48,582 bases of DNA, taken from positions 1 through 48,582 of the forward strand of contig JBCCWF010000003.1 of NCBI GenBank assembly GCA_039194035.1, read 5' to 3'. Below, one piece after another: positions 1,955 through 30,029 of this stretch (its first letter is position 1; every line of letters starts with the position of its first letter). The notes beneath the pieces were generated by a model, which made no database searches, had not been told where the DNA came from, and saw only the letters and a list, made by a program, of their open reading frames with translations. The position numbers and the translations under genes were made by a program. Source of the stretch: Cyanobacteria bacterium P01_E01_bin.6. GTDB taxonomy: Bacteria > Cyanobacteriota > Cyanobacteriia > CAKZMO01.

Positions 1955-4900
1955 TCATAAAAGCGTACTTTCCATATCTTCCAGTATTTCTGATGATGGT
2001 TCTGCTGGCTGCACCGCGGTCGCTAATGGTGCGATCGCAAGCTGCTCTAAAATGCGAGTTGCTAATTGGGCAATGGTAGATGTTCCCAGGAACTGCTCGA
2101 TTGGCAGACAAACCTGCAAATCGCTCTCAATTCGATTGCGCAGTTCAAACGCAATTAGCGAATCAATCATCCCTGCCAGGAATTGCTGTGCATTCAATCT
2201 ACTGGTTGGCAACTGGAGTAGATGAGCAATAATTGTTATCAAATACTGTTCTACCAGTGCAGATTGTTCTGTAACAGGCATCTGCAAAATGCGTGATGGA
2301 TCCAGTAGATTGGTTGGCTCACTGTCGAAGTCGCTAGTGGCAGATTGAGCAGATGAGCGAATCGATGGGGAGGCGGCAGGTTGCCATTGTCGCAATTGTA
2401 AGCGGGTTGCTTTGACCAAGCACTTTCCATCGCAATCGAGTAGCATGACATGCGCAGACAAGGTGGCTGTTTGAGATGGATCAGACCAGTCTACGACTTG
2501 GGTGCTAATTTGAGCGTAAGCCCATACGGGTTGATCGTCTCCACTGAAATCATTAATCTGTAATTCCTCCAAGCTCAAAATAACGTAGGCATTGACACAT
2601 TCTTCGGGTAAGCAGGCAGCAAGCAGTTGAAAGCAGGCATCTAGCCCTTGGAGAGGCAATCTATAAGGCTGAGTACCTGACAATTTTGACGGTGACAGTT
2701 GTCCTAACGCTTCACCATCGCGCCGCCAAATAGTGTCTAGAACTTGACAACTCGATCCTAGCTCTGCTCCATGCGCTTGAAGGTGTTGATAGAAGGTTGA
2801 GGCGTTCAAACTATCGGAGCAAAGATGCTGCAAGGCAGCAATATCTAGATGAGCTGACGCCGAAGGCGATGATACCGACTGAAGTTGTCCTGTTGCATGC
2901 AGGATCCACTGGCAGTCCTGGTGAGACTGTTGGATGCTGAAGATTTGAAATTCAGCCTGCTCTGAATCCTGTGGCATCAAGATCAACTGCACGGTGTGAG
3001 ATTGCTCCGATTCAAATGCTAACGGCTGCGGAACGAGCAGCGATTTCCAGTGAGTCATCGGCTGACCAAACGCTGCGATCGCGCCTGCTTGAACCATTTC
3101 CAGATACACGACCAGGTTCACGATCGCGTGACCATGCAGGCGATGGTCGCGCACCAAAGGCAGAGTATTGAGACACCATTGAGCTTCAAATTGGATTGAC
3201 GACAGCGGAGACGCTAAACGCTGACCCAGCAGGGGATGTGACCCCGGATTTGGCAGAGAAGAACGATGGGATGGCAATGCAGGTGCTGATTCAAGCCAGT
3301 AGCGCTGTCGTTCAAAGGGATAGGTCGGTAATGACACGGGCGATCGCGCCTGACCTTGCTCAACGACTTGCCAGTTGATATCCAATCCGCGCACGTAAAG
3401 CTGGCTCAGGCAATGTAAGAGTGGAGTCCAGTCGTCTTGTTCGGGGTCGAGTGAGGATAAACAGAGCCAAGGACGGGTGGGGGCTTCCAACGGAACGGTA
3501 AAGGGATCGCTACCGATCACAACTACTGCATCACAGGACGCGGCTTGCAATGAGGTTATTTGAGTTGGAGAGAGGATTGCTGGCGGATTGGCCGATTGAC
3601 GGGGTGGCATTTCGGCGGAGTGTGCGATCGCTAAAACATCTGGAGATGGAGCAGGCTCTGCTAAAACTTGCTGGATCAGAGCTTCTATACTCAGCGCTCC
3701 AGATAAACAGTTAGCAACATGTTCGCCCACACCATCTCCCAACATGAGAACAGGTTCAATCCCCCACGAACGCCACAGTTGAGCCAGGGCATATTGCCGT
3801 ACAGCATTGAGCAACCGCTGCCACTGAGTAGAGCTATCGTCGAGGGAATGTATTTCCCGCCAAGTCGCCAAGAAAGAGTCGGAGCGGTGACGATCAATTT
3901 CAGTGATGCAATCATTCAGCGTGGCTTGAAAATTTGGTTCGGTATTATATAATTTCTGCCCTAGTGATAGAGACTGGCTAGATTCATGGGGAAAATAGAA
4001 CGCGAGTTTGAGAGGTGTTGGCTGACTATCGCTTGTGGACTCGTTGCCCTGTTGAGGCAGTAATGGCTGCCTTGCCACTCGTGCTTGCAGCAAAGTCTGT
4101 AGATCTGCAAGGGTCGATGGTTGCAGTGCGAGTCGGTGAGAAAAATGCGATCGCCTGACAGTGGTTGTAAAGCAAACATCTGCCAGCTCGACATCCGGAT
4201 GAGCCTGTAAATAGTTCATGAGTTGCTCAACCTGATAGTCCAACGCCGTTGCCGTTTTAGCGGACAAACAGAGAATTTGGGCAGAGCGAGGTTGGGCAGG
4301 TTGACAAGCTAGCTCTGGCGCAGACTCGACAATCAGGTGAGCATTGGTGCCACTAAAACCAAAAGCACTGACTCCAGCAAAATGGGATTGGCCCGAATCC
4401 ACCTGCCAGGGAGTGCGCTGTGTAGGGATGCTGATTTTGGTATCGGTCAAATTGATGTGAGGATTCACCTGATGCAGATGCAAATGAGCTGGAATTTCCT
4501 GATGCTGGATCGCCAGAACGACCTTAATCAGGCTGGCAATGCCTGCGGCAGCTTCCAAATGTCCAATGTTCGTTTTAACCGATCCGAGCATCAATGGGTG
4601 CGATCGCGATTTCACGTTGCCCAGTACAGCATTCAACGCTCCGACCTCGATTGGATCGCCCAATGGGGTACCGGTGCCATGAGTTTCGACGTAGTGAATT
4701 TGCTCTGGTGCAACGTGAGCATTATGGAGTGCAGCCCGAATCACCGCCTGTTGAGCGGTTCCATTTGGCACTGTTAACCCACTACTGCGTCCATCCTGAT
4801 TAACAGCAGAGCCGCGAATGACTGCCAAAATACGATCGCCATCGGCTTGAGCATCGGTTAAACGCTTCAGTGCGATCACGCCGCATCCCTCTCCCCGACC

Positions 4901-5710
4901 ATAGCCATCGGCGGCAGCGTCAAACGTTTTGCAATAGCCATCGGCAGAAAGCGCATTCAGTTTTGCCATTGCAAGAGTCGTTTGCGGGGCAAGCATCAAA
5001 GACACGCCTCCCGCTAGTGCCAGGTTGCACTCCTGCAATCGTAAGCTTTGACACGCTAGATGCACCGCAACCAGGGAGGAAGAACAGGCCGTATCGATCG
5101 CGATCGCAGGACCTTGTAATCCGAGCCAGTAAGCAATTCGTCCGGCTGCAACACTCAGAGCATTCCCTGTAGCCGTGTAAATATCAATAGTCGCGGCATC
5201 CCGAAACAATGCGGACTGCAAATATTCACTCAAACTAATGCCGATAAAGACTCCTGCCTTGCTTCCCATCAGTCGGGAGGTTGGGATTCCGGCTTGTTCT
5301 AAGGCTTCCCAACTTACTTCCAGCAATAAGCGCTGTTGCGGGTCCATGCTGGTGGCTTCTCGTGGACTCAGCCCAAAAAACTCAGCATCAAACTGATCGA
5401 TCGCCTCCAAGAACCCTCCCCGACTTGTTATATCTGGCGTAACGGGATTGAAGCTGTTGTCGCGTTCGACCCGCCCGCATGTGGCTGGAACATCTCGAAT
5501 CGCATCTACACCCTTTTGCAGTAGTTGCCAGAATGCTTCCGGGTTGTCTGCTCCGCCGGGGAAGCGGCATCCCATACCGACGATCGCGATCGCTTCCGTT
5601 TGCGATCGCTCTAATGCGTCAATCCGGCTTCGCATTTCTTTGAGAGCCAGGGCTGCCCGTTGGAGTGGCGATAACGTTTCAAGAGAGTGCTCAGGTAAGT
5701 CAATCATCAT
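1955..5710 (-). CDS. Type I PKS module 3: KS - degenerate AT - DH-like domain - ACP
   Basis: KS motifs DTACSSS, HGTGT and NIGHLE are intact. The AT active site GHSxG reads GDGVG and the domain is shortened. DH-like region HPLLG...HRLHGHAIVN...LDACFQ; ACP IDSL. The probable start at 5710 overlaps the upstream stop (ATGA). Confidence 0.93.
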   Translation of the reverse strand: MMIDLPEHSLETLSPLQRAALALKEMRSRIDALERSQTEAIAIVGMGCRFPGGADNPEAFWQLLQKGVDAIRDVPATCGRVERDNSFNPVTPDITSRGGFLEAIDQFDAEFFGLSPREATSMDPQQRLLLEVSWEALEQAGIPTSRLMGSKAGVFIGISLSEYLQSALFRDAATIDIYTATGNALSVAAGRIAYWLGLQGPAIAIDTACSSSLVAVHLACQSLRLQECNLALAGGVSLMLAPQTTLAMAKLNALSADGYCKTFDAAADGYGRGEGCGVIALKRLTDAQADGDRILAVIRGSAVNQDGRSSGLTVPNGTAQQAVIRAALHNAHVAPEQIHYVETHGTGTPLGDPIEVGALNAVLGNVKSRSHPLMLGSVKTNIGHLEAAAGIASLIKVVLAIQHQEIPAHLHLHQVNPHINLTDTKISIPTQRTPWQVDSGQSHFAGVSAFGFSGTNAHLIVESAPELACQPAQPRSAQILCLSAKTATALDYQVEQLMNYLQAHPDVELADVCFTTTVRRSHFSHRLALQPSTLADLQTLLQARVARQPLLPQQGNESTSDSQPTPLKLAFYFPHESSQSLSLGQKLYNTEPNFQATLNDCITEIDRHRSDSFLATWREIHSLDDSSTQWQRLLNAVRQYALAQLWRSWGIEPVLMLGDGVGEHVANCLSGALSIEALIQQVLAEPAPSPDVLAIAHSAEMPPRQSANPPAILSPTQITSLQAASCDAVVVIGSDPFTVPLEAPTRPWLCLSSLDPEQDDWTPLLHCLSQLYVRGLDINWQVVEQGQARSPVSLPTYPFERQRYWLESAPALPSHRSSLPNPGSHPLLGQRLASPLSSIQFEAQWCLNTLPLVRDHRLHGHAIVNLVVYLEMVQAGAIAAFGQPMTHWKSLLVPQPLAFESEQSHTVQLILMPQDSEQAEFQIFSIQQSHQDCQWILHATGQLQSVSSPSASAHLDIAALQHLCSDSLNASTFYQHLQAHGAELGSSCQVLDTIWRRDGEALGQLSPSKLSGTQPYRLPLQGLDACFQLLAACLPEECVNAYVILSLEELQINDFSGDDQPVWAYAQISTQVVDWSDPSQTATLSAHVMLLDCDGKCLVKATRLQLRQWQPAASPSIRSSAQSATSDFDSEPTNLLDPSRILQMPVTEQSALVEQYLITIIAHLLQLPTSRLNAQQFLAGMIDSLIAFELRNRIESDLQVCLPIEQFLGTSTIAQLATRILEQLAIAPLATAVQPAEPSSEILEDMESTLL

Positions 5711-8700
5711 GTTGCTCCAGTCACCCATGTGGTAAATTCTTGGTCAATTAATGCGGTGAGTTCGGTTTCGGATAAATGCTGAATCGCTTGCCAGGATTGT
5801 TCGGCTGGTTGATCGGTTGTAACGGGTGTTGGGGGAAATAGCTGCGTCAACAGATAGTCTGCTAGTGCCGAGAGCGTTGGACAGTCGAAGGTTAAGGTGG
5901 ATGGGAGCCGCAGATTAAATCGAGTTTGCAAACGGTTTCTCAATTCCAATGACATCAATGAATCTATTCCGAGTTCAAAAAAACCTGTGTGTGGATCGAA
6001 ACCATGACTGCTGTCACGTCCGACAACATTCAATACATCCTGCTGTAAATTTTCAAGAATGCGAGTGCGACGTTGGCTTGGCGAGAGCCTTTCCCATCCA
6101 TCGCGCCAAGATGCGATCGCTTTAGACGTCAAGGTTGGCAATGGCAAGGCACTCAGCAACTGATACCGATCAGGATTAGGAAGCAGGGAGTGAAACTGAG
6201 TCCAGTCGATTGGCAATACACCGACCTGGGCAGGTGTTTGCGATCGCAACTGGCGCAGGATTGAAAACCCTTGGGCAGGCGTTAATAGCTGCACACCTGC
6301 CGTTTGCCAGCGCTGCTTGCCGCGATCGCTTAATGCTGCTGCCATTCCCACCTCTGCCCAGGGACTCCAGTTAATGCTGAGGGCAGGAAGTTCCTGCGAT
6401 CGCCGAGCGTGAGCTAACCCATCCAAAAAGGCATTCGCCGCCGCATAGTTTCCCTGAGCGGGTGACCCCAATAGAGAGGCTGCTGATGAAAATAATACAA
6501 ACTGATCTAAAGGCAGCGATCGCGTGTGAATATGCAAGTTCCAGGCTCCGACAACTTTTGGTAACAATACAGCTTCAAAGCGTTGCCAACTCTGATGCAG
6601 CAATACACCATCATCCAACACACCCGCCAGATGAAACACGCCTTTCAGCGGGGGCGCGGTTTGCTGCAAGGTTGCGATCGCTTGAGCAACTTGATTCGTC
6701 TCAGCCACGTCTGCTTGAACGCAGTAGATTCGGGCTCCCTGATCTTCTAATTGCTTTAAGACCTCAGTTGCTGATTGAGAGGGAACTCTCCGACCCATGA
6801 GCGCTAGATGCTGAACCCCCTGCTCAACCAGCCATTGGGCTAGCTGTAACCCTAGCCCACCAAATGCCCCAGTAATTAAATAGGTTGCATCAGCCTGGTA
6901 GCGAGACAACTCTGCTTGAGTCGTTGTCACTTCAGGTTGCTGTACCGAAGGTTGCTGTGCCGACTGAGAGATTTGCCAAGGCATTAAGCGTGGAACGTAA
7001 CGCTTCCCGGCTCGAATCGCAATTTGATCGTCTGGGTTGACCTGGCTTATCTCTGCTGCGATCGCTGCCACTGTGCTGTCTTCTACAATGGCTGGCACAT
7101 CGATTAAGCCTCCCCACTGTTCGGGATGCTCAAGTGCAATAACACGCCCTAAGCCCCAGAGCAGAGTTTGGAGGGTAGAACTTGGACATTCTTCTGGTTC
7201 AACGGCTTGAGCCGTTTGAGTGACCACCCAGAGACGGTAGGGAGCAGACAGGGAAACATGAGCGATCGCCTGGGCTAAATAAAATAACCCTGCACAGGTT
7301 GTTGGCCCCCGAGACGCTGGTATTGTGAGATACTCGGCAGTGTCTTCATCTAGCCCCCACAGGTAAATTACGCCAGACCAATTGCTTGATTGCAGCAAGG
7401 TTTGAAAAAACTCTGAGCTATTAGAATGATGCACCTGCGCCTGATCCAGGCTGCTACCCAGAGTTGGGGCAGATGAGTTGGCATAGATGACTCGACAGGT
7501 CGCTCCCTGTTCAGTCAGATGGGCAGCCAGTCGATCCCCTAACCCACTGCGGCGATCGCCTAAAATCAACCATTGTTTTGCAAATGAGGCTGAATCATGA
7601 GCAGATCCATGAGTAGAGTGATTGTCAAAGTTATTAACCTGCTCATTAGCGACTTTATTGCTAGATTCAGCGTCAAGCTGCCATTGCAAGGCATACAGAC
7701 AATTTGGCGGAAATTCCACAGTAGAATCCTGCTCGACTGAATGTGGTTTGACTGTGGCAGATTCCAACCAATAGCGCTGACGCTGAAATGGATAGGTCGG
7801 TAGCGACACTCGGCGACGGAAATAATCGCGATCAAACCCCTGCCAATTGATGGATTTGCCCTGTACATAAAGCGCACTTAAACTGGTCAGCAGCACAGAC
7901 CAATCAGATTGACCCCGACGTAGAGAGGGCAACCACAGAACCGCCTGTGACGAACCACACTGCCGCCCTAAACCCAGTAGGACTGGATGGGGACCAATCT
8001 CTAGCAGTTCACGACAGCCCAATTTGATCAGCGTTTGCATCCCGGTCGCAAACTGGATGGGCTGCCGCAAGTGTTCGCACCAATACTCTGCCTGCAATAG
8101 CTGAGTTGCATTTGCAACCGTGCCAGTGACATTCGAGATTACAGGAATCGTCGGCGAACGAAACTGAATGGTTGCGGCGATCGCCCGAAATTCCTCTAGC
8201 ATCGGCTCCATCATCGCCGAGTGGAAGGCGTGAGATACCTGAAGGCAACGGCTTTCGATCCCTCGCTGAGTGAACACTTGCTGCACGGCAGCGATTGCCG
8301 ATTGTTGCCCTGAAATCACGACATTCTGAGGACTATTGATAGCCGCGATCGACACTTGATCACGGATCGGCTCGATTACCGATTGCACCACGGCTAGATC
8401 TGCAAAAACAGCCGCCATTGCTCCTCCACTTGGCAACGCTTGCATCAGGCGTGCCCGTTGTGCCACCAAGAGTAACCCTTCTTCTAGCGTAAAAATGCCC
8501 GCTACACAGGCTGCAACATATTCGCCCAGACTATGCCCCATCACCATATCCGGCTCAATTCCCCAGGAGCGCCAAAGCTGTGCCAACGCATACTCAATCG
8601 CAAATAGAGCGGGTTGCGTATAAGCCGTCTGGTCAAGCAGGGAAGAGGTCCGGGGTAACTTGGATTGATCTCGCTCCTGCGCTGTCTCCACATCTGCTTT

Positions 8701-10557
8701 AGGGGGATATAACACCTGTAATAATGACTGTTCTAACTGCGATTGCAGCAACTGATCGCATCGATCAAGGATCTGGCGGAACAGCGGGCTGGTATTGTAC
8801 AGTTGCCGTCCCATCTGTAACGCTTGCGCACCCTGACCCGTGAATAGAAATGCAACCTTGGTGGGTTGCCGTTCGGCTTGTCCCCGTATGCCGGTAAATT
8901 CAGAGTTCCCGGCGGCGAACGCGACTAGTTGTTGCTGGATTTCTGCTTTGGACTCTGCCACGATCGCACACCGTTCGCGCCAGTGTGATCGTCCGGTATT
9001 TGCACTGAAACAAATGTCTGCAAGTGCTACATCAGTTTGGCGATCGAGATACTGAATCAATTGATTTGCTTGAGCGTTTAATGCCGCTTCTGATTTTGCT
9101 GAGAACGCCAGTAGATGTACCATGCGTTCTGGATTCGTGGCAGGTGGTTCTACTGGCGCAAATCGAGATTCTTCCAGAACAACATGAGCATTGGTGCCAC
9201 TCATGCCAAACGAACTGATTCCTGCAATCCGCGATTGTCCAGCCGCCAGAGTCCAGGGCGTTAGCTCCGTTGGAATTGTGACACCTAGTTTCGACCAATC
9301 CAGAGCCGGATTTAACTGTTGCAGATGCAGATGGGGCGGAAGTTCCTGATGCTGCATTGCCAGCACGACTTTGATCACTCCAGCTATCCCTGCGGCAGGT
9401 TCTAAGTGACCGATGTTGGTTTTAACAGACCCGATCGCCAACGGATTGGAGAGCGATCGCTCCTGTCCAAAAACGGATGCTAACGCCTCAACCTCGATCG
9501 GATCTCCTAGAGCCGTTCCAGTGCCATGAACTTCGACATAGCTGACCTCGTGAGGAGCGACGTTCGCTTGAGTCAGAGCTGTCTGCAGCAATACTTGTTG
9601 GGCACATCCATTCGGTACGGTCAGTCCACTGCTGCGCCCATCATGATTAACCGCCGACCCTCGCACTACTGCCAGAACGTGATCCTGGTCCGCGATCGCA
9701 TCCGATAACCGTTTGAGAACCACCAGCCCACAGCCCTCACCCCGCCCATAGCCATCGGCTGAGGCATCAAAAGTTTTACAGCGCCCATCGATTGCCAACG
9801 CCCGCATTCGAGACAGAATAACGTGTCCGTGGGGAGCCAAAATTAAATTGACTCCTCCAGCCAGAGCAAGCTGACAGTCCCCAGATCGTAAGCTCTGGCA
9901 GGCCAAATGCAGCGTGACTAGCGATGAGGAACAGGCGGTATCCACGGCGAGAGCAGGTCCCTGAAAGCCAAACCAGTAGGCTAACCGACCCGCCGCCACG
10001 CTAGAGGTATTTCCGGTAAACGCATAAGCATTCAGGCCGGATAAATCATTGGCGACATTCTGCGATCGCGCATAATCTGCATTATTGATGCCAACGAATA
10101 TCCCAGTTCGACTACCATCTAAGTTTGTGGCTGGCATTCCGGCATGTTCTAGTGCTTCCCATGCCACCTCCAGTAAGAGCCGCTGTTGGGGATCCATCGA
10201 TACGACTTCACGCGGTGCCATTTCAAAGAATGCGGAGTCAAACTGATCAACCTGGTCTAGAAAATGCCCCTGCTGAGTGTAGGTTTTGCCCACGCAATCC
10301 GGATCCGGATCATAGTACTGGTTCGCATCCCATCGCTCTACTGGAACAGGTTGAGCGGTATCTAATCCGGCTCGTAGCCGTTGCCAGAAAGTGTGCGGAT
10401 CGTTGCCCCCACCCGGAAAGCGACAGCCGATTCCGACGATCGCAATCGGTTCTGAACGGGCAGATTCCAGCGCTTTCAGTTTTGCCTGCAAATCTTCAAT
10501 AGCAAACAATGCCTGTTTTAGGGGGGAAAGTTGAGCGTGGCGATCAGCAAAAGTCAT
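5707..10557 (-). CDS. Type I PKS module 2: KS-AT(malonyl)-KR(B-type)-ACP
   Basis: KS DTACSSS/HGTGT; AT GHSLG...HAFH; KR TGAFGGLG, LDD motif and YAAAN; ACP GIDSL; N-terminal docking helix LSPLKQAL. Confidence 0.95.
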   Translation of the reverse strand: MTFADRHAQLSPLKQALFAIEDLQAKLKALESARSEPIAIVGIGCRFPGGGNDPHTFWQRLRAGLDTAQPVPVERWDANQYYDPDPDCVGKTYTQQGHFLDQVDQFDSAFFEMAPREVVSMDPQQRLLLEVAWEALEHAGMPATNLDGSRTGIFVGINNADYARSQNVANDLSGLNAYAFTGNTSSVAAGRLAYWFGFQGPALAVDTACSSSLVTLHLACQSLRSGDCQLALAGGVNLILAPHGHVILSRMRALAIDGRCKTFDASADGYGRGEGCGLVVLKRLSDAIADQDHVLAVVRGSAVNHDGRSSGLTVPNGCAQQVLLQTALTQANVAPHEVSYVEVHGTGTALGDPIEVEALASVFGQERSLSNPLAIGSVKTNIGHLEPAAGIAGVIKVVLAMQHQELPPHLHLQQLNPALDWSKLGVTIPTELTPWTLAAGQSRIAGISSFGMSGTNAHVVLEESRFAPVEPPATNPERMVHLLAFSAKSEAALNAQANQLIQYLDRQTDVALADICFSANTGRSHWRERCAIVAESKAEIQQQLVAFAAGNSEFTGIRGQAERQPTKVAFLFTGQGAQALQMGRQLYNTSPLFRQILDRCDQLLQSQLEQSLLQVLYPPKADVETAQERDQSKLPRTSSLLDQTAYTQPALFAIEYALAQLWRSWGIEPDMVMGHSLGEYVAACVAGIFTLEEGLLLVAQRARLMQALPSGGAMAAVFADLAVVQSVIEPIRDQVSIAAINSPQNVVISGQQSAIAAVQQVFTQRGIESRCLQVSHAFHSAMMEPMLEEFRAIAATIQFRSPTIPVISNVTGTVANATQLLQAEYWCEHLRQPIQFATGMQTLIKLGCRELLEIGPHPVLLGLGRQCGSSQAVLWLPSLRRGQSDWSVLLTSLSALYVQGKSINWQGFDRDYFRRRVSLPTYPFQRQRYWLESATVKPHSVEQDSTVEFPPNCLYALQWQLDAESSNKVANEQVNNFDNHSTHGSAHDSASFAKQWLILGDRRSGLGDRLAAHLTEQGATCRVIYANSSAPTLGSSLDQAQVHHSNSSEFFQTLLQSSNWSGVIYLWGLDEDTAEYLTIPASRGPTTCAGLFYLAQAIAHVSLSAPYRLWVVTQTAQAVEPEECPSSTLQTLLWGLGRVIALEHPEQWGGLIDVPAIVEDSTVAAIAAEISQVNPDDQIAIRAGKRYVPRLMPWQISQSAQQPSVQQPEVTTTQAELSRYQADATYLITGAFGGLGLQLAQWLVEQGVQHLALMGRRVPSQSATEVLKQLEDQGARIYCVQADVAETNQVAQAIATLQQTAPPLKGVFHLAGVLDDGVLLHQSWQRFEAVLLPKVVGAWNLHIHTRSLPLDQFVLFSSAASLLGSPAQGNYAAANAFLDGLAHARRSQELPALSINWSPWAEVGMAAALSDRGKQRWQTAGVQLLTPAQGFSILRQLRSQTPAQVGVLPIDWTQFHSLLPNPDRYQLLSALPLPTLTSKAIASWRDGWERLSPSQRRTRILENLQQDVLNVVGRDSSHGFDPHTGFFELGIDSLMSLELRNRLQTRFNLRLPSTLTFDCPTLSALADYLLTQLFPPTPVTTDQPAEQSWQAIQHLSETELTALIDQEFTTWVTGAT

Positions 10558-10597
10558 AAACGTGGGATGAGAAGTGAGCGGTTAGGAACAGGATGAA

Positions 10598-13500
10598 TTA
10601 CTCGAGGGCATTCAGTTTCTCCATCAAAAGCACCTCTGTTTCATCTTCGGATAATTGTTCTAGCGTGTTGAGCAAATCAGTGTTGAGTAAATCAGCAGAC
10701 TCATTCGCAGCCGTGGGTAAAGACGGCTCCAGTTCCCGGTCTGCTTCCAACTGCAAAACGTCGCGCAGTAAATAGCCAGCTAAAGCTGCGATCGTCGGGT
10801 AGTTAAATCCGAGCGTGGGGGATAAAGAATGCCCTAATACTTGCTCTAGTCGGTTTTTCAACTCGACTACCATTAGCGAGTCAAAGCCCATCTTAAAAAA
10901 GCCAAGGGTGGGTTCAATAGACTCAGCAGATGAAACTCCCAAAACTCTGGCAAATTCCTGTTGCAGAAAACTAACCAGCAATGGTAAACGATCGCACGGA
11001 TTAACCTCAGCCAATTGCTGACTCCAATTAGCGTTTGTAACTGGACTGAGATCGCCCGTCTCTGGAGGTAAGGATTTTTGAGGACTGGTTTCGAGCCAGT
11101 ATCGCTGTCGTTGAAATGGATACGTTGGTAATCGGAGGCGGCTGTAGCAATCTGCTTGATACACCCCTGTCCAATCAATTGCTACGCCATGAACAAATAA
11201 ATGGCCCAGACTACTTAGCATCACTTGCCAATCGGATTGCTCCGGATGCAAGCTGGATAACCAGGCCCCTGTCCCTTGTGGAAGGCAGTGCTGCCCCATG
11301 CCGATGAGAGTTGGTTTTGGACCTATTTCCAGAAAAAGGGGATATCCTTGTTGATGCAGCGTTGCCATCCCCTCCACAAATTTGACCGGCTGCAGTAAAT
11401 GATTGACCCAATAGGTTGGCGTGGCGATGTCTGCGGTTCCCAGAGCACCCGTTACGTTGGAGATCAGTGCAATTTTCTGAGGGGAGTAGGCGATCTTGCT
11501 AGCAACTTGCTCGAAGTCATGCCGAATGGGGGCCATGAGGGGAGAATGAAAAGCATGGGAAACAGACAAGCGTACTATTCTGATTCCGCCAGCCGCCAGG
11601 GTAGCAGTTGCATCTGCGATCGCCTCTTGCTGTCCCGAAATGACCACGTTTTCAGGACCATTGTAGGCAGCGATACTAACGGTATCGGTATAGGGACGTA
11701 GTACTGCCATTACCTGGGCTGCCGGAGCTAGCACAGCGGCCATCTCCCCGGTTTTGGGCAAGGCTTGCATTAAGCGTCCCCGGGCCGCAACCAACCGCAA
11801 TCCATCCTTGAGACTAAAGACTCCTGCCACGCAGGCTGCAACATATTCACCGATGCTGTGCCCCATGACAGCGGCTGGTTCAATGCCCCAGGACTGCCAC
11901 AATTTCGCCAGAGCATACTCCACCGCAAATAGGGCTGGCTGGGTGAAAGCTGTTTGATCCAGAAGGGGACTGGTGCCCGTTGGCGGATAGAGCACCTCTA
12001 GCAATGAGGGGGCTAAATCAGCATCAGCGCACAGAATTTCATGGCATTGATCGATCGCCTCGCGAAAGATGGGTTGCGTATGATATAGCTCCTGGCCCAT
12101 GCGAACGTACTGGGAGCCTTGCCCTGTGAACAGAAAAACAACGGGTGGACTCTTGCGGCGGGTGACTTGCCCTGTGACTAGCCCTGGACTCGCCTGTTCG
12201 GCCAAGAATGTTTGCAGTTGCTCACGTAACGCCTCTGTGGAGGTCGCGATCGCAGCCAACCGATGGGGAAACGTCGAGCGTTTCGTGTTGGCATTAAAGC
12301 AAACATCTGCAAGCGAAATGGCGGGATAATCGGTTAAAAATTTAATGTAGCGCTGAGCCAAGGCGTGCAGGGCGCTGACACTCGTGGCGCTCAGGGTCAG
12401 CAGATGACTGGGGCGATCGTCTGCTCGATCTCTGACAGAAGGGGTCGGTGCAGCCTCCAAAACGACATGAGCATTGGTGCCGCCGAACCCGAAGGAACTT
12501 ACCCCAGCGACTGGGTTCCCGCTCCAGGGTGATAAGGTGCGCTGAACTTGCAAGGGTAGGGTGTCAAACGGAATATAGGGATTGGGCTGTTGAAAATGCA
12601 GACTGGGAGGAATTTGCTGATGATCGAGTGAGAGCGCGACTTTAATTAGGCCAGCGATTCCTGCGGCTGCTTCAGCATGACCAATGTTTGTCTTCACAGA
12701 CCCGATCGCACAAATAGATCCGGCAGGGCGATCGTCTGTCAACACCGCTCCCAGTGCCTTCATTTCGATCGGGTCGCCTAATTTGGTTCCTGTTCCGTGA
12801 GCCTCAATGTAGTGCACTTGCCCAGGAGAGATCCCTGCCTGCCGATAGGCTGCTCGCAACAATGCTTCCTGTGATTTGGGTTGGGGAGCAGTGAGTCCGT
12901 TGGTGCGCCCGTCTTGGTTTATCGCACTGCCTTGAATCAAGGCATAAATGGGGTCTCGATCAGCTAGCGCCTGAGATAGACACTTCAAGACTACGACTCC
13001 CGCCCCCTCGCTCCGCACGTACCCATCTGCTCTGGAATCAAATGCCTTGCAGCGACCATCTGGAGCCATAAATCCAGCTTTGTCAAAGCTGCGAGTCACC
13101 TCTGGCAGTCCCATCACCTGCGCCCCTCCGGCTAACGCTAGGGTCGATTCGCCACTGCGTAAACTCTGGCAGGCAAGATGCACAGCGACCAGAGAGGATG
13201 AACAGGCTGTATCGATCGCCAGACTAGGTCCTCTCAAGTCAAGTAAGTAGGAGAGGCGGTTGGCGGCCATGCAATTCACCGTGCCTGTGGTAGCGTAAGG
13301 GTCATCAGAAGGGTTTCTCCAAACCAGCGTTGAATAGTCATGCAGTGAAATGCCAACATAGACTCCCGTTGAGGTACCGGCAAGTTGTTCGGGAATCAGC
13401 CCAGCATCTTCTAGGGCTTCCCAGGCCACTTCCAGCAGCAATCGCTGTTGCGGATCCATACGAGTGACCTCGCGAGTGGCGATACCAAAGAATTGGGGGT

Positions 13501-13687
13501 CAAACTGATCGACCTGGTCGAGAAATCCACCCCAGCGGATGGGGGTCTGCGACTCTGACCAGCGATCCGATGGAACTGGAGTAATCGCATCGACCCCATC
13601 TCGCAACAGCTGCCAAAATGCCTTTGGTCCATCTGCACCAGGGAAGCGGCACCCAATTCCAACGATCGCAATCGGTTCTTTATCCAT
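10598..13687 (-). CDS. Type I PKS module 1: KS-AT(malonyl)-ACP, non-reducing
   Basis: KS DTACSSS/HGTGT; AT GHSIG...HAFH; ACP GFDSL; C-terminal docking segment LEQLSEDETEVLL. The start overlaps the P450 stop. Confidence 0.95.
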   Translation of the reverse strand: MDKEPIAIVGIGCRFPGADGPKAFWQLLRDGVDAITPVPSDRWSESQTPIRWGGFLDQVDQFDPQFFGIATREVTRMDPQQRLLLEVAWEALEDAGLIPEQLAGTSTGVYVGISLHDYSTLVWRNPSDDPYATTGTVNCMAANRLSYLLDLRGPSLAIDTACSSSLVAVHLACQSLRSGESTLALAGGAQVMGLPEVTRSFDKAGFMAPDGRCKAFDSRADGYVRSEGAGVVVLKCLSQALADRDPIYALIQGSAINQDGRTNGLTAPQPKSQEALLRAAYRQAGISPGQVHYIEAHGTGTKLGDPIEMKALGAVLTDDRPAGSICAIGSVKTNIGHAEAAAGIAGLIKVALSLDHQQIPPSLHFQQPNPYIPFDTLPLQVQRTLSPWSGNPVAGVSSFGFGGTNAHVVLEAAPTPSVRDRADDRPSHLLTLSATSVSALHALAQRYIKFLTDYPAISLADVCFNANTKRSTFPHRLAAIATSTEALREQLQTFLAEQASPGLVTGQVTRRKSPPVVFLFTGQGSQYVRMGQELYHTQPIFREAIDQCHEILCADADLAPSLLEVLYPPTGTSPLLDQTAFTQPALFAVEYALAKLWQSWGIEPAAVMGHSIGEYVAACVAGVFSLKDGLRLVAARGRLMQALPKTGEMAAVLAPAAQVMAVLRPYTDTVSIAAYNGPENVVISGQQEAIADATATLAAGGIRIVRLSVSHAFHSPLMAPIRHDFEQVASKIAYSPQKIALISNVTGALGTADIATPTYWVNHLLQPVKFVEGMATLHQQGYPLFLEIGPKPTLIGMGQHCLPQGTGAWLSSLHPEQSDWQVMLSSLGHLFVHGVAIDWTGVYQADCYSRLRLPTYPFQRQRYWLETSPQKSLPPETGDLSPVTNANWSQQLAEVNPCDRLPLLVSFLQQEFARVLGVSSAESIEPTLGFFKMGFDSLMVVELKNRLEQVLGHSLSPTLGFNYPTIAALAGYLLRDVLQLEADRELEPSLPTAANESADLLNTDLLNTLEQLSEDETEVLLMEKLNALE
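10665..10694. repeat. 15-bp tandem duplication (DLLNT x2) in the C-terminal linker of PKS module 1
   Basis: GTGTTGAGCAAATCA followed by GTGTTGAGTAAATCA. Confidence 0.8.
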
Positions 13688-14909
13688 AGCTCAAAGGCGC
13701 GGGTTGCGCAAAGGTAACGTTGAGTGATTTCAGTCCTCGTAGAACCAAATTACCCCGCCATTCCAGTGGTGCGGGAGAGAGCGCTAACTGAGGTAGCGTT
13801 TGGATCAGGGTTGAGATGGCAACCTGTCCTTGAACCCGAGCCAGAGCAGCCCCCAGACAGTAGTGAATGCCAGTACCAAAGGGCAGGGGACGATGGCAGC
13901 GGCTAAAGTCGAGGCGATCCGGATCCGGAAATTGCGCTGGGTCACGATTGGCAGCCCCCAGACAGACAATGACTTTCTCTCCAGCACAGATCCGCTTGCC
14001 TCCAATTTCGACATCGACCTGCACATCTCGACCAATGAGCTGTACTGGGCTGTCGTAGCGCATTAGTTCTTCGACCGCACTGGTGATCAGGCTGGGATCC
14101 TGCTTGATCTGTGTTAATTGCTCCGGGTGGTGCAAGAGTGCTAGCATCCCGTTACCAATCAAGTTTTCGGTGGTTTCCTGACCCACGCTAAACAACATCG
14201 TGCACAGAGATAGCAATTCATCCTGACTCAGGGATATTCCCTGTTGTTGAATCTGAACCAGATCACTCAAGAGATCGTCTTGGGGATGGACCGCCTTGGT
14301 GGCGATCGCGTCACGGAAATAATCTCTCATCTCTTGGGCAACGAGCTCCAGAGACCCATATTCTTCTAAAGACAGGGGTTGATCGAAAACACGAAATAAC
14401 TGTATGGCCCATTCAACGAGTTGTTCCCTGTCATGGGCTGAAATTCCTAAAAGTTGAGCTGTGACTAAAGCGGGTAAAGGTCTGGCAAAATCGGCCATCA
14501 GATCCATCTTGCCGGTTTGATGCACGTTGGCAATTAACTCATTCACGATCGTCTGAATTTGAGGACGCAGGCGCTCGACCATGCTGGGAGAAAACGCTTT
14601 GCTCACTAGCGATCGCAGACGAGTATGATCCGGTGGGTTAAGGAAAAACAACCATTGGCCGATGGTTTGTCGCAGCACATCGAAACTTTGCCAATGCTTG
14701 AACTGTGATCCTTTGTGTTCCAGGCGATCAGGCAAATCATCGACCACAAATCTTCGATCTCCGAGAACTGCGATCGCGTCTGTGTAACGGGTCAACAGCC
14801 ATCCCCTCGTAAACCCCCGAATCTTATGAACCGGATCGTGGGTGCGCAAATAGTGATAGGTAGGGTAAGGGTCGGAGCGGAATGCAGGCAGAAAGGGGTT
14901 AAACTTCAT
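13680..14909 (-). CDS. Cytochrome P450 (CYP107/BioI-like)
   Basis: Heme motif FGTGIHYCLG, ExxR (EELMR), I-helix VGQETT and PPDHTRLR. Confidence 0.95.
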   Translation of the reverse strand: MKFNPFLPAFRSDPYPTYHYLRTHDPVHKIRGFTRGWLLTRYTDAIAVLGDRRFVVDDLPDRLEHKGSQFKHWQSFDVLRQTIGQWLFFLNPPDHTRLRSLVSKAFSPSMVERLRPQIQTIVNELIANVHQTGKMDLMADFARPLPALVTAQLLGISAHDREQLVEWAIQLFRVFDQPLSLEEYGSLELVAQEMRDYFRDAIATKAVHPQDDLLSDLVQIQQQGISLSQDELLSLCTMLFSVGQETTENLIGNGMLALLHHPEQLTQIKQDPSLITSAVEELMRYDSPVQLIGRDVQVDVEIGGKRICAGEKVIVCLGAANRDPAQFPDPDRLDFSRCHRPLPFGTGIHYCLGAALARVQGQVAISTLIQTLPQLALSPAPLEWRGNLVLRGLKSLNVTFAQPAPLSYG

Positions 14910-14945
14910 AAATCTGAGGGGGGGGGGTAGGTGTGCTCGTCTGGA

Positions 14946-15266
14946 TCAGTGAGTCAGCAGAGATGGTGATTCCCCCAGGTGCTCTGCCAGGGCTGCAATG
15001 GTTGAGTAATCGAAGGGTAGGGTAGGGTCTAGCTCTTGTCCCATCCAATCCCCCAAACCCTGGGTCAAACTGACAATGGCAGAAGAATCCAGCCCATAGC
15101 GATCAAAGGAAACGTCCAGATCGACCTCTGCCAAACTAATGTCTAACAGTGTAGAGAGATGGGAAGCCAGCCATTGCTCAATCTCAGCCGTTGTTTTTTT
15201 AACTGGCTGGTTGGCTGTGGGTGTTAGGGGTTGAGCGATTTCAGAATTTTGCCTGTCCATGCACAT
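14946..15266 (-). CDS. Stand-alone acyl carrier protein, likely the FAAL partner (JamC-like)
   Basis: FDRYGLDSS phosphopantetheine motif; lies directly after the FAAL and desaturase genes. Confidence 0.93.
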   Translation of the reverse strand: MCMDRQNSEIAQPLTPTANQPVKKTTAEIEQWLASHLSTLLDISLAEVDLDVSFDRYGLDSSAIVSLTQGLGDWMGQELDPTLPFDYSTIAALAEHLGESPSLLTH

Positions 15267-15296
15267 ATTCCTTAATGAAAGTTTTGGCGATGGTGT

Positions 15297-16249
15297 CTAT
15301 CCAGCTTTTTTAACGACTACTCGGTTGGCCTTGGGAACTTTGACATCCCATGCCATTCTGGTCATTTTCAGCAGCCGAATGACCCAGTAACCCAATTCCA
15401 CTTGCCACTACTCCAGCCCAAATTTGGCTGACTTGGGAAAGCCATGGTAATTGTTATGCCAGCTTTCTCCCAGGGTAAGCAAGGAAAGCCAAGGGTTATT
15501 GGTGCTGCAGTTGTCCACTGCAAAGGGGCGGCCACTCCAGGTATGGGCAATCGAGTTGATGACATAACCGCTATGCTATGACTTGAGAAGAAAAGTCGGG
15601 CTAATCCTCCCCAGACCAGTTCTTGAAACGCACTCAGCCAAGTTTGAATGAGGAGCAAGCCCAAAATTGACGGAATCACGATACCCAGAGAAATCCAAAC
15701 TACATACAACCTATTGATTTGGGCGATCACGGCGTCTTGCTGCAAATCTTTAGCAAACAACATTGAATTGGGTAGTTGACTGTCAAGCAACCATCCAATA
15801 CGAGCGTACCAGAGTTCCCGCAGGTTGCCTTGAAGTCCTGATCCATGCAGGTGAGGTGAGTGAGGATCTCCCAGCTTGTCGCTGTACTGGTGATGACAGC
15901 GGTGAACCGACACCCACGCTGTTACCGATCCCTGCTCTGCCATTGAGCCAAGGATAGCCAAGGCAATCTGAATCGGTCGGGTCGTCTGGAAGGTTTTGTG
16001 GGAGAAATATCGATGAAAGCCTACCGTAATACCAATTGAGGTGAGACAGTACGCTCCAAGCAACAGGCAAACACTCAGTAGGATCACTTGTACTGTCACC
16101 AATTGGTAGGCGGCGATCGCGCATCCCGTCAAGGAGAGCACACTCATGCCCAGAATGAACCGTTGCTTGATCTGCTGTAGGTAACGGCTATAGACGGTAA
16201 TCTTAGACTGGGCAGCGATCGGATTGTGACTCTTGGGTTGATTGGACAT
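15297..16249 (-). pseudogene. Membrane fatty-acyl desaturase/acetylenase (JamB-like), inactivated
   Basis: His boxes HRYFSH and HRCHH are present. A 5-bp duplication (CTATG x2, 15571-15580) shifts the frame. The corrected frame reads SHSGYVINSIAHTW...GESWHNNYHGFP...GLE*WQVELGY...AWDVKVPK, with a TAG at 15408-15410 and the natural stop at 15297-15299. Confidence 0.92.
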
Positions 16250-16273
16250 ACGGATACCCTGTGGAATGTTGGC

Positions 16274-19260: not shown

Positions 19261-19431
19261 CTATTGCCAAGAACTCTCAATAGTTATATGATGCATCGTA
19301 TCGATGAAAAACTGTTCTTAGCTGGGGATTGCCCCAAAGTTACAGATACGTAGAATTTGCACTTTGTAAGACTATAGGTTCCATCCAATTCTGGATGGGG
19401 ATTGGTTCTAGCCGTACATTTGGCGAAGAAT

Positions 19432-29732: not shown

Positions 29733-29776
29733 CCGTCCAGAGTTAGAGCCACCATCATCTATTAGTTCAAACCACC

Positions 29777-30028: not shown

Positions 30029-30029
30029 G

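What the first reader, a model, noticed from the sequence alone, without database searches (positions are those of the whole stretch)
1955..13687. Three single-module PKSs may spell out a non-iterative 6-alkylsalicylate synthase
Seen: module 1 does not reduce, module 2 has KR only, and module 3 has an intact KS plus a DH-fold domain but no KR. Known: 6-alkylsalicylates arise from an acyl starter and three malonyl units, with a single reduction after the second extension, then aldol cyclisation and dehydration. Iterative enzymes normally do this (6-MSAS; the FAAL-primed micacocidin PKS). Inferred: the same keto/hydroxy/keto program is laid out colinearly over three proteins, supplying an aryl cap for the first Cy domain. 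No salicylate synthase or aryl-adenylating enzyme is in the window.
Basis: inference. Interest (0 to 1): 0.85.

Follow-up and report, generated by a model that had tools for sequence, protein, structure and literature searches.

The report
Three-module PKS possibly building alkylsalicylate
Three cyanobacterial polyketide synthase genes carry the domain pattern expected for building a fatty-tailed salicylate step by step as a cap for a thiazoline peptide, but the third module has lost its own loading domain, so the idea is plausible and unproven.

Summary
The domain layout is real. On the minus strand, FAAL, desaturase, ACP and P450 are followed by PKS1 (KS-AT-ACP), PKS2 (KS-AT-KR-ACP) and PKS3 (KS-AT remnant-DH-ACP). 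PKS3 docks onto a divergent Cy-A-PCP NRPS.

PKS3 belongs to a conserved family. All 16 members checked keep the KS Cys-His-His, and none keeps the AT serine. The DH carries a clade-specific HxxxGxxxxN motif. The trio recurs in other cyanobacteria and one planctomycete, usually beside the same Cy-NRPS.

Relatives have an intact AT in module 3. One near-complete genome (G228) has it in the same trio-plus-Cy arrangement, so there module 3 should elongate without a KR. Two relatives lack the AT in module 2 as well, which implies shared ATs.

The features of a non-elongating dehydrating bimodule (KS0, A-type KR) are not met. No salicylate synthase was found in six cassette-bearing genomes.

My odds:
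- about 0.5 that the trio makes a 6-alkylsalicyl thioester colinearly
- about 0.22 that it makes a linear keto-enoyl chain
- about 0.18 that it elongates without forming an aromatic ring

No chemistry has been shown.

The parts
16274..18034 (-). FAAL (fatty acyl-AMP ligase), 586 aa
   Evidence: AMP-binding 241.7 bits plus AMP-dom_DIP2-like 49.5 bits. Homologues are fused to PKS1 in other genomes, as open frames of 1755-1800 aa.
15368..16249 (-). Membrane fatty-acid desaturase, 293 aa; an accessory gene not conserved in related loci
   Evidence: FA_desaturase 46.1 bits. Nearest named relatives are acyl-CoA / delta-9 desaturases at up to 58% identity.
14946..15266 (-). Stand-alone ACP, 106 aa
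   Evidence: PP-binding 45.8 bits.
13680..14909 (-). Cytochrome P450, 409 aa; overlaps the PKS1 start by 8 nt
   Evidence: p450 103 bits; coordinates.
10598..13687 (-). PKS1 (module 1): KS-AT-ACP, no reductive domain
   Evidence: Pfam. Motifs DTACSSS, HGTGT, KTNIGH, GQG, GHSIG and HAFHS are present.
5707..10557 (-). PKS2 (module 2): KS-AT-KR-ACP
   Evidence: Pfam. GHSLG, HAFHS and the KR LDD motif at residue 1314 are present.
6352..6888 (-). KR domain of PKS2 (aa 1224-1402), the only ketoreductase in the trio
   Evidence: PF08659 223.7 bits. TGAFGGLG, LDD and SSAAS...NYAAAN are seen in the translation.
1955..5728 (-). PKS3 (module 3): KS, AT remnant, DH, ACP, C-terminal docking tail
   Evidence: Pfam; translation; family alignment.
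4475..5596 (-). KS of PKS3 (aa 45-418) with intact Cys212 / His350 (HGTGT) / His390 (NIGH)
   Evidence: These residues are invariant in the family.
3389..4000 (-). Degenerate AT remnant of PKS3 (about aa 577-780): FYFPHESSQ in place of FTGQG, GDGVG in place of GHSxG, core deleted
   Evidence: Acyl_transf_1 scores only 23.3 bits, below the cut-off. See also the alignment. This is the least conserved and most gapped of the folded domains (0.46 identity).
2375..3238 (-). DH-fold domain of PKS3 (aa 831-1118): His862 in HRLHGHAIVN (HxxxGxxxxN), Asp1030 in DACFQ
   Evidence: Pfam; motifs. The HMM is closest to the CurJ DH, 1.1e-38. The AF2 model has mean pLDDT 76.1, and the top Foldseek hits are the CurJ/CurF/CurK DH domains.
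2051..2248 (-). ACP of PKS3 (aa 1161-1226), IDSL
   Evidence: PP-binding 32 bits; DSLIAFE at residue 1189.
1958..1996 (-). Conserved C-terminal tail ...EDMESTLL, a presumed docking motif for the NRPS TubC_N-type domain
   Evidence: The tail is conserved in orthologues (MESLIL, IETLTI, MEEILL). TubC_N scores 51.5 bits at the NRPS N-terminus. That the two pair is recalled knowledge, not tested here.
19402..22893 (+). Acceptor NRPS: TubC_N docking domain, Cy, A, PCP
   Evidence: Pfam. Cy motifs FPLTDMQHAFWVGR and DLQIFDAWS. Best PDB sequence matches are the EpoB and HMWP2 Cy domains.

Best explanation
The FAAL loads a fatty acid onto the stand-alone ACP. The desaturase and P450 may modify it there. 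PKS1 extends the chain once and leaves the beta-keto group. PKS2 extends it again and reduces the new keto group to a hydroxyl.

PKS3 is still a condensing module. Its ACP would be malonylated in trans by a neighbouring AT (PKS1 or PKS2, or FabD). KS3 would then add a third malonyl unit, giving a 3,7-dioxo-5-hydroxyacyl thioester.

The specialised DH-fold domain (HxxxGxxxxN) would act at this tetraketide stage, by dehydration and/or a C2-C7 aldol ring closure. The product would be a 6-alkylsalicyl-S-ACP3. It would pass through the C-terminal docking tail to the Cy-A-PCP module, forming a 2-(2-hydroxy-6-alkylphenyl)thiazoline cap for a tris-heterocycle NRPS-PKS line.

Shown: domain content, active-site residues, the dead AT, family conservation, synteny, and relatives with an intact AT.

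Inferred: trans-loading of ACP3, elongation by module 3 in this window, cyclisation and aromatisation, and the role of DH3.
For: 1. Domain pattern none / KR / DH-only, with both intact ATs carrying the malonyl-type HAFHS motif.

2. KS3 keeps Cys, HGTGT and KTNIGH in 16 of 16 distinct module-3-like proteins: the window, P0004-P0015, L026, L027 and L028. Two other cyanobacterial KS-AT-DH-ACP proteins from the same hit list (P0017, P0048) read QGTGT, so the histidine can be lost in this kind of protein.

3. There is no relaxed constraint on KS3. Of 135 columns invariant in AT-active module 3 plus module 2 KSs, 101 stay invariant in 17 AT-dead module 3 KSs, and most exceptions are singletons. Mean pairwise identity is 0.67, against 0.69 for module 2 KSs. 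KS is the best conserved part of PKS3 (0.77) and the AT remnant the worst of the folded domains (0.46).

4. Relatives with the same DH hallmark have complete ATs (GQG, GHSVG, catalytic His): P0254, P0262, P0269 and the fragment P0291. In genome G228 (99% complete, 4 contigs) such a module lies in the colinear order KS-AT-ACP / KS-AT-KR(LDD)-ACP / KS-AT-DH-ACP / Cy-A-PCP. Its AT scores 217 bits, and the Cy-NRPS is 59% identical to the window's.

5. AT sharing already has to occur in relatives. The L028 module 2 is KS-KR-ACP with intact Cys-His-His and no AT.

6. The trio is complete in 6 of 6 loci with enough upstream sequence: the window, L022, L023, L024/L030, L025/L031 and L041. The Cy-NRPS is adjacent or divergent in 7 of 11 loci.

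7. The programme matches 6-MSAS: no dehydration at the triketide stage, water lost at the tetraketide stage, a DH-like THID also present in orsellinic acid synthase, and an R-alcohol (passages of PMC4950124).

8. The rest of the line is Cy-A-PCP three times, KS-AT-cMT-KR-ACP, KS-AT-KR-ACP and a terminal MT-PCP-TE. This resembles the salicylate-capped lusichelin, leptochelin and fatuamide lines. Yet no salicylate synthase scores above the cut-off in 0 of 6 cassette-bearing genomes.

9. L028 has a Methyltransf_2 O-methyltransferase (151 bits) between module 3 and the Cy-NRPS.
Against: - The window's module 3 AT is catalytically dead and truncated. The own genome holds no dedicated trans-AT: only the cis ATs, one other PKS and a 312-aa FabD-like frame. 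Malonylation of ACP3 is therefore assumed.
- AT loss could mark a switch to a non-elongating role in this subclade.
- DH3 is closest by sequence and fold to ordinary curacin dehydratases (CurJ/F/K). No product-template domain appears among the listed fold hits.
- His and Asp of the dehydratase dyad are intact, and the upstream KR has the LDD motif that usually pairs with a DH. That also fits a plain cross-module dehydration.
- MicC makes 6-pentylsalicylate without any DH/THID (PMC4950124), so a DH is not required for this chemistry.
- The Baaleninema-type clusters show no transport genes typical of metallophores in the 40 kb examined.
- No product is known, and no paper describing this cassette was found.
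Confidence: 0.5

Rival explanations
1. Module 3 does not elongate. KS3 only passes the 3-hydroxy-5-oxoacyl chain from ACP2 to the empty ACP3. DH3 dehydrates it, and a linear 5-oxo-2-enoyl chain (or its dienol tautomer) goes to the Cy domain. This would be a cis-AT-derived counterpart of a trans-AT type A dehydrating bimodule.
For: - Dead or absent AT in 16 of 16 close family members.
- The architecture KS-AT-KR-ACP followed by KS-x-DH-ACP mirrors KS-KR-ACP-KS0//DH-ACP (passages of PMC8456789).
- DH3 has the His/Asp dyad and is most like canonical dehydratases.
- The LDD-type KR upstream has no DH of its own.
- Vinyl-linked thiazolines exist in lusichelins.
Against: - The defining KS0 change (Cys-Asn-His in HtmA1 KS3) is absent. 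HGTGT is kept in 16 of 16 members with no relaxation of constraint, while unrelated cyanobacterial KSs in the same hit list did lose it (P0017, P0048).
- Type A bimodules usually carry A-type KRs. Here the KR has LDD.
- Orthologous cassettes have a fully intact AT in module 3 (G228, P0254, P0262, P0269).
- L028 needs an AT in trans for module 2 anyway. With Cys-His-His intact, KS3 would then condense.
Confidence: 0.22
2. Module 3 elongates but no benzene ring forms. DH3 removes the 5-hydroxyl (beta to the new 3-keto group, a vinylogous-type dehydration). A linear 3,7-dioxo-4-enoyl chain or another non-aromatic form is condensed with cysteine.
For: - The same evidence for elongation as the best explanation.
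- The nearest solved relative is the CurJ DH. [quoted passage not shown] I saw only its title in a reference list; its content is recalled.
- Type B bimodules have two elongating KSs and a DH that acts on an upstream hydroxyl.
Against: - A 3,7-dioxo-5-hydroxy or 4-ene thioester is the 6-MSA-type precursor and is expected to cyclise readily. This is general chemistry and an inference.
- Strict conservation of the unreduced module 1 with the KR-only module 2 in 6 of 6 loci is best explained if the distal ketone is needed.
- Type B bimodules have a KR after DH-ACP, which is absent here.
Confidence: 0.18
3. The cluster, or at least module 3, is decaying and non-functional. The dead AT and the flanking transposase fragments would mark a relic.
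For: - Dead AT.
- IS fragments at 18484-18873 and 998-1303.
- The genome is a fragmented assembly of 727 contigs.
Against: - All long ORFs are intact.
- The same AT-dead architecture is conserved with high KS, DH and ACP identity across many genera.
- The AT remnant keeps the flanking linkers.
Confidence: 0.05

Closest known systems
Micacocidin MicC, a FAAL-primed, partially reducing iterative type I PKS that makes 6-pentylsalicylate as the cap for a Cy domain
   Same: A FAAL-activated fatty acid starter. Three malonyl extensions proposed, with one ketoreduction after the second. The product is handed to a heterocyclisation NRPS in a thiazoline line without a salicylate synthase. This is the only PKS-derived alkylsalicylate chelator named in PMC12971057 (passages).
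   Different: MicC is one module used three times and has no DH/THID domain (PMC4950124 passage). Here there are three separate proteins, one per extension, a DH-fold domain in the last, and a dead AT in the last. The MicC domain order is recalled, not checked by a call.
6-Methylsalicylic acid synthase / ATX (fungal and bacterial iterative PKS, KS-AT-DH(THID)-KR-ACP)
   Same: The same keto / hydroxy / keto programme. The DH-like domain acts at the tetraketide stage. The KR gives the alcohol that is lost only after the last extension.
   Different: 6-MSAS is iterative, a single polypeptide with an acetyl starter, and its THID releases free acid. Here the thioester must stay bound for transfer to the NRPS. 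No sequence comparison with a THID domain could be made.
Trans-AT 'dehydrating bimodules', type A (KS-KR-ACP-KS0//DH-ACP) and type B (KS-KR-ACP-KS//DH-ACP-KR)
   Same: A KR-only module followed by a KS-DH-ACP module on the next protein. The L026 and L028 relatives even lack AT domains in both modules.
   Different: KS3 has Cys-His-His, not Cys-Asn-His. The KR carries LDD and is not the usual A type. There is no KR after DH-ACP. The domains are of cis-AT (CurL-like) descent with an AT remnant.
Curacin CurJ, CurF and CurK dehydratase domains
   Same: The best sequence match (CurJ 1.1e-38, 136.7 bits) and the best fold matches (TM about 0.8 normalised to the target). A double hotdog with the His/Asp dyad. 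CurJ also lacks the usual YGP motif (alignment).
   Different: The Pro of HxxxGxxxxP is Asn throughout the module 3 clade. The domain sits in a module without a KR.
Salicylate-capped cyanobacterial metallophore lines (lusichelins, leptochelins, fatuamide A)
   Same: A first Cy-A(Cys)-PCP module followed by PKS modules with cMT/KR, further Cy modules, and a terminal cMT plus TE (BGC sections read, compared).
   Different: Those clusters encode a salicylate synthase and an aryl ligase. This window has FAAL plus three PKS modules in their place, and no TonB or ABC transport genes lie on the contig.

Membership tests
Partially reducing iterative alkyl-/methylsalicylate synthase (6-MSAS, MicC) | One KS-AT-(DH/THID)-KR-ACP module is used iteratively for three extensions | tested here: not met
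   There are three separate modules on three proteins, each with its own KS and ACP.
Partially reducing iterative alkyl-/methylsalicylate synthase (6-MSAS, MicC) | A single ketoreduction after the second extension, with none after the first or third | tested here: met
   The KR is present only in module 2. This is met at the level of domain content; enzyme activity is not shown.
Partially reducing iterative alkyl-/methylsalicylate synthase (6-MSAS, MicC) | The product is a 6-substituted salicylate | not testable with these tools
   No chemistry is available. No matching compound was found in the literature searches.
Trans-AT type A dehydrating bimodule | The second KS is a non-elongating KS0 lacking the HGTGT histidine (Cys-Asn-His) | tested here: not met
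   ETHGTGT at residue 348 in the window, and HGTGT in 16 of 16 family members. The definition comes from a passage of PMC8456789.
Trans-AT type A dehydrating bimodule | A-type KR in the first module | tested here: not met
   The LDD motif is at PKS2 residue 1314. Reading LDD as B-type is recalled from the literature.
Trans-AT type B dehydrating bimodule | Both KSs elongate, and DH-ACP is followed by a KR | tested here: not met
   KS3 looks condensation-competent, but no KR follows DH-ACP in PKS3.
Canonical cis-AT PKS extension module | A functional cis AT with GQG, the GHSxG serine and the (H/Y)A(F/S)H motif | tested here: not met
   In PKS3 the motifs read FYFPHESSQ and GDGVG, there is no HAFH, and the Pfam score is 23.3 bits, below the cut-off of 32.7. 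PKS1 and PKS2 meet this feature.
PKS dehydratase (double hotdog, His/Asp dyad) | Double-hotdog fold with a catalytic His in HxxxGxxxxP and an Asp in DxxxQ/H | tested here: inconclusive
   The fold and both dyad residues are present. The motif Pro is Asn in the whole clade, with unknown consequence.
Aryl-capped thiazoline NRPS-PKS (yersiniabactin, pyochelin or lusichelin type) | Heterocyclisation domains, an A domain and a carrier protein; a PKS with cMT/KR; a terminal MT-PCP-TE | tested here: met
   Three modules have Cy motifs, plus KS-AT-cMT-KR-ACP and C-A-MT-PCP-TE.
Aryl-capped thiazoline NRPS-PKS (yersiniabactin, pyochelin or lusichelin type) | Salicylate synthase and an aryl-acid adenylating enzyme | tested here: not met
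   Neither is in the window. The TIGR03494 best hit scores 169.7 bits against a cut-off of 325 in the own genome. No hit exceeds the cut-off in 0 of 5 other cassette genomes.
FAAL-primed PKS loading | A FAAL-type adenylation enzyme with a cognate ACP | tested here: met
   AMP-binding plus the DIP2-like C-terminal domain, and a stand-alone PP-binding protein. Fused FAAL-ACP-KS-AT-ACP forms occur in relatives.

The most novel reading that the evidence does not exclude
A conserved three-protein cassette (in cyanobacteria and at least one planctomycete) is an 'unrolled' partially reducing PKS. It would build 6-alkylsalicyl thioesters colinearly, one module per extension. A specialised DH-fold domain (HxxxGxxxxN) would serve as the tetraketide cyclase/aromatase. 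One AT would increasingly serve all three ACPs, since AT decay is seen in module 3 and, in some lineages, in module 2. The cassette would then be a natural intermediate between modular cis-AT, trans-AT and iterative logic. It would feed either a Cy-NRPS (an alkyl-hydroxyphenyl-thiazoline cap) or a terminal reductase (an alkylsalicylaldehyde).
Probability: 0.4. Interest if true: 0.8.

Novelty: new variant of a known kind. Interest (0 to 1): 0.66.

Why it matters
If the reading is right, the salicylate programme known only from iterative enzymes (6-MSAS, MicC) also exists in a colinear, three-module form. Each step could then be isolated, mutated and swapped. The question of how partially reducing PKSs time their one reduction and close the ring would become testable module by module.

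It would also give a second, independent route to PKS-made aryl caps for thiazoline metallophore-like products. Current genome-mining rules cannot detect such caps; PMC12971057 says the alkylsalicylate PKS is undetectable by its rules.

The graded loss of AT domains within one orthologous cassette runs from intact, through Ser-to-Gly, truncated and absent in module 3, to absent in module 2 as well. That is a rare natural series showing how a cis-AT line may drift towards shared or trans loading.

If the reading is wrong, the cassette is still an undescribed cis-AT-derived dehydrating pair with a catalytically complete KS.

Tried and rejected
1. Known cyanobacterial thiazoline metallophore clusters. 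I read the BGC sections of the leptochelin, fatuamide and lusichelin papers. All start from a salicylate synthase, and none has this PKS trio, so the window is none of these clusters.

2. Literature searches found no description of this cassette or of a modular alkylsalicylate route. They covered alkylsalicylate, anacardic acid and thiazoline in cyanobacteria, inactive-AT or non-elongating cis-AT modules, and FAAL plus heterocyclisation. A FAAL review was searched for terms only. The library lacks most subscription journals and supplements were closed, so this is not proof that nothing is in print.

3. Donor preference of the first Cy domain. Cy1 and Cy2 of the window both score best against the EpoB Cy, then HMWP2 and BmdB. 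This does not discriminate an aryl from an alkyl donor.

4. Fold of DH3. An AF2 model (mean pLDDT 76.1) and a Foldseek PDB search returned ordinary PKS dehydratases and no product-template domain among the rows listed. This does not separate dehydratase from cyclase roles.

5. A sample of 400 cyanobacterial genomes searched with the PKS3 C-terminal part gave only distant matches, apart from G228. The close loci came from the pattern scan.

6. Trans-AT hunt. The own genome has no extra AT beyond the cis ATs, one other PKS and a FabD-like gene. In the fragmented L026 and L028 genomes, linkage of ATs to the cassette could not be established. The exception is an M1-like KS-AT-ACP gene at a contig end.

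7. Metallophore transport genes were looked for around the Baaleninema cluster. None was seen in about 40 kb.

8. The desaturase search returned generic acyl-CoA desaturase names only, with no link to alkyne-forming enzymes.

9. A-domain specificity codes were not extracted. 'Cys-like' rests on motif resemblance only.

Full report
**What is in the window.**
The window is a whole contig of a fragmented cyanobacterial genome (727 contigs, 90.7% complete). The PKS3 relatives are almost all cyanobacterial.

The minus strand holds one operon-like run:
- FAAL (18034-16274)
- a fatty-acid desaturase (16249-15368)
- a stand-alone ACP (15266-14946)
- a P450 (14909-13680)
- PKS1 (13687-10598): KS-AT-ACP
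- PKS2 (10557-5707): KS-AT-KR-ACP
- PKS3 (5728-1955): KS, AT fragment, DH, ACP

A line on the plus strand runs divergently from it:
- TubC_N-Cy-A-PCP
- KS-AT-cMT-KR-ACP
- a hydroxy-/methoxymalonyl-ACP-type cassette (3-hydroxyacyl-CoA dehydrogenase, a small ACP, acyl-CoA dehydrogenase, an FkbH-like HAD protein)
- a second Cy-A-PCP
- a methyltransferase
- KS-AT-KR-ACP
- Cy-A-MT-PCP-TE

All three NRPS modules carry the heterocyclisation motifs FPLTD.Q.A.W.GR and DxxxxD.

**Check of the observation.**
So is the statement that KS3 is intact: DTACSSS, ETHGTGT and KTNIGH are present. Both AT1 and AT2 have GQG, GHSxG and HAFHS. KR2 has the nucleotide-binding and catalytic motifs and LDD.

- Pfam finds only profile positions 2-109 of 319, at 23.3 bits, below the cut-off.
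- FTGQG reads FYFPHESSQ.
- The GHSxG nucleophile motif reads GDGVG.
- The middle of the domain, including the HAFH region, is deleted. The KS-AT and post-AT linkers remain.

**The PKS3 family.**
A search with the AT-DH-ACP part found a set of cyanobacterial proteins of 1165-1368 aa with the same architecture.

I checked 16 distinct module-3-like proteins: the window, P0004-P0015, and the L026, L027 and L028 genes.
- All 16 keep the KS Cys, HGTGT and KTNIGH.
- None has the AT serine. The motif reads GDG in 9, GHG in 2, GYG in 1 and GCD in 1, and is absent in 3.

The AT shows a graded decay: full length with Ser replaced by Gly (P0013), then partly deleted, then completely gone.

Conservation by domain among eight close orthologues:

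| Region | Mean pairwise identity |
|---|---|
| KS | 0.77 |
| ACP | 0.66 |
| DH | 0.58 |
| AT remnant | 0.46, with many gaps |

The DH keeps its His and, where the pattern matched, its DxxxQ Asp. The Pro of HxxxGxxxxP is Asn in every member.

Two other cyanobacterial KS-AT-DH-ACP proteins from the same hit list, P0017 and P0048, read QGTGT. The decarboxylation histidine can therefore be lost in this kind of protein.

**Synteny.**
A pattern scan of species-representative genomes gave nine loci.

The order PKS1-like, PKS2-like, PKS3-like is complete in 6 of 6 loci with enough upstream sequence:
- the window
- L022
- L023
- Baaleninema simplex PCC 7105 (L024/L030)
- Geitlerinema sp. BBD (L025/L031)
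- G228 (L041)

In four of these (L022, L023, L024/L030 and L025/L031) the FAAL-ACP is fused to PKS1.

A close homologue of the window's Cy-A-PCP gene (57-65% identical) lies divergent from, or directly after, the trio in 7 of 11 loci. In L021, L022 and L023 it is not seen within the available sequence. In the planctomycete locus L029 a terminal reductase follows module 3 instead. Fusions of the module 3 type to a reductase domain also exist (P0016, P0251, P0262).

The PKS3 C-terminal tail (...MESTLL) is conserved, and the NRPS starts with a TubC_N docking domain. This fits direct hand-over. The pairing itself is recalled knowledge, not tested.

**The key comparative result.**
A profile search of 1.84 billion representatives gave hits, of which I examined 24. 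Fifteen carry the Asn-type DH motif. Their AT status is:
- 4 intact, with GQG and GHSVG: P0254, P0262, P0269 and the fragment P0291 (HAFHS matched in the last three; P0254 reads HPFH)
- 4 with substituted motifs
- 7 with no AT motif in what is often a partial sequence

In the near-complete genome G228, four colinear genes encode:
- KS-AT-ACP
- KS-AT-KR(LDD)-ACP
- KS-AT-DH-ACP, with an AT of 217 bits (FTGQGSQ, GHSVGEY, catalytic His kept), DH motif DHCINGMPLMN, and tail DDMEEILL
- Cy-A-PCP, 59% identical to the window's

In that cassette, module 3 has everything needed to condense and no KR. Its DH therefore cannot be acting on a hydroxyl made in its own module. The keto / hydroxy / keto programme is explicit there.

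Conversely, the L028 cassette has lost the AT in module 2 as well. That module is KS-KR-ACP with Cys-His-His intact, so it must receive its extender from another AT. An M1-like KS-AT-ACP gene sits at a contig end in that genome. AT sharing inside this cassette is thus not special pleading for the window.

**Is KS3 still under the constraint of a condensing enzyme?**
Of 135 alignment columns invariant in four AT-active module 3 KSs plus seven module 2 KSs, 101 stay invariant in all 17 AT-dead module 3 KSs. The exceptions are mostly single sequences. Mean pairwise identity is 0.67 for the AT-dead KS3 group, 0.69 for module 2 and 0.62 for AT-active module 3.

In a KS tree, the module 2 and module 3 clades group together (99/98 support) with comparable branch lengths. 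KS1 falls outside. Only the rows listed in that call were included.

**Comparison with dehydrating bimodules.**
Passages of PMC8456789 define two types:
- Type A is KS-KR-ACP-KS0//DH-ACP, with a Cys-Asn-His KS0 and usually an A-type KR.
- Type B is KS-KR-ACP-KS//DH-ACP-KR, with both KSs elongating.

The window meets neither definition. KS3 has Cys-His-His, KR2 carries LDD, and no KR follows DH-ACP.

The 6-MSAS probe study (PMC4950124, passages) concludes:
- The 3-hydroxytriketide is not dehydrated but extended.
- Water is lost at the tetraketide stage.
- The DH-like THID also occurs in orsellinic acid synthase and is linked to cyclisation and release.
- MicC lacks a THID.

A DH-fold domain placed in the third, KR-less module is therefore where a colinear copy of 6-MSAS would put it. 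MicC shows that such a domain is not indispensable.

**What DH3 looks like.**
The profile of the DH-ACP part is closest to the CurJ DH (1.1e-38), followed by CurF and CurK. The AF2 model (mean pLDDT 76.1) finds the same domains first, at TM about 0.8 normalised to the target. No product-template domain is among the listed rows.

So DH3 is a dehydratase by descent. Whether it only dehydrates or also guides ring closure cannot be read from these data.

**Context.**
The plus-strand line resembles the salicylate-capped cyanobacterial lines of lusichelins, leptochelins and fatuamide. However, no salicylate synthase passes the curated cut-off in the own genome or in five other cassette genomes, 0 of 6 in all.

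L028 carries a Methyltransf_2 O-methyltransferase between module 3 and the Cy-NRPS. That suits a phenol but does not prove one.

The Baaleninema cluster differs. It ends in C-A-PCP-R and shows no siderophore transport genes nearby. The cassette is therefore not tied to metallophores.

**Verdict.**

| Reading | Odds |
|---|---|
| Colinear 6-alkylsalicyl-ACP3 synthesis, with ACP3 loaded in trans | about 0.5 |
| Non-elongating dehydrating module giving a 5-oxo-2-enoyl chain | about 0.22 |
| Elongation without aromatisation | about 0.18 |
| Relic | about 0.05 |

I found no description of this cassette in the searchable literature. That library is incomplete and supplements were closed.

The finding is a new variant of a known kind: a PKS-made alkylsalicylate cap, laid out modularly and with AT decay. 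It is well suited to a direct biochemical test.

Noticed in passing
window 13680-18034 (minus strand): The gene order FAAL, membrane desaturase, ACP matches the jamaicamide JamA/B/C arrangement as I recall it (a starter with a terminal alkene or alkyne), here with an added P450. Neither the desaturase nor the P450 is present in the related loci examined. The desaturase aligns to named acyl-CoA desaturases over only about 74% of its length.
   Followed up: partly
window 28875-32311 (plus strand), small ORF at about 29770-29990: A cassette for a hydroxy-/methoxymalonyl-ACP-type extender: 3-hydroxyacyl-CoA dehydrogenase, acyl-CoA dehydrogenase and an FkbH-like HAD protein. An unlisted ACP-like ORF of about 80 aa lies in the gap between the first two. 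Which AT uses the extender was not examined.
   Followed up: partly
window 18484-18873 and 998-1303 (also 316-1015): Transposase fragments (DDE_Tnp_IS240 at 68.9 bits; DUF772, weak) sit in the divergent promoter region between the FAAL and the NRPS, and just beyond the PKS3 stop. The cluster may be mobile or recently rearranged.
   Followed up: no
L028 7163-8197: An O-methyltransferase (Methyltransf_2 at 151 bits, plus its dimerisation domain) is inserted between the module-3-like gene and the Cy-NRPS in an uncultured bacterium. In that bacterium, modules 2 and 3 both lack AT domains.
   Followed up: partly
L029 about 7600-12450; proteins P0016, P0251, P0262: Module-3-type proteins fused to, or followed by, a terminal reductase domain (NAD_binding_4). 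In a Gemmataceae contig this occurs with no NRPS in the 10 kb downstream. The trio can therefore work as a stand-alone unit with reductive release. The L029 genes look frameshifted.
   Followed up: partly
L024 11324-12100; L025 11359-12150: A stand-alone thioesterase gene (158 and 150 bits) directly follows PKS3 in Baaleninema and Geitlerinema, although the chain is expected to pass to the divergent NRPS. It is probably an editing type II TE; this was not tested.
   Followed up: no
proteins P0017 and P0048: Other cyanobacterial KS-AT-DH-ACP(-TE) proteins have QGTGT in the KS. P0048 also has GHNVG in a truncated AT and Tyr where the DH catalytic His is expected. This looks like a separate family of non-elongating or otherwise unusual modules.
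   Followed up: no
L040 (G228 region 25233-28223 of the joined 40 kb): The PKS that follows the Cy-NRPS in G228 also shows GHGIG at the AT nucleophile position. Replacement of the AT serine by glycine recurs in this cluster family.
   Followed up: no
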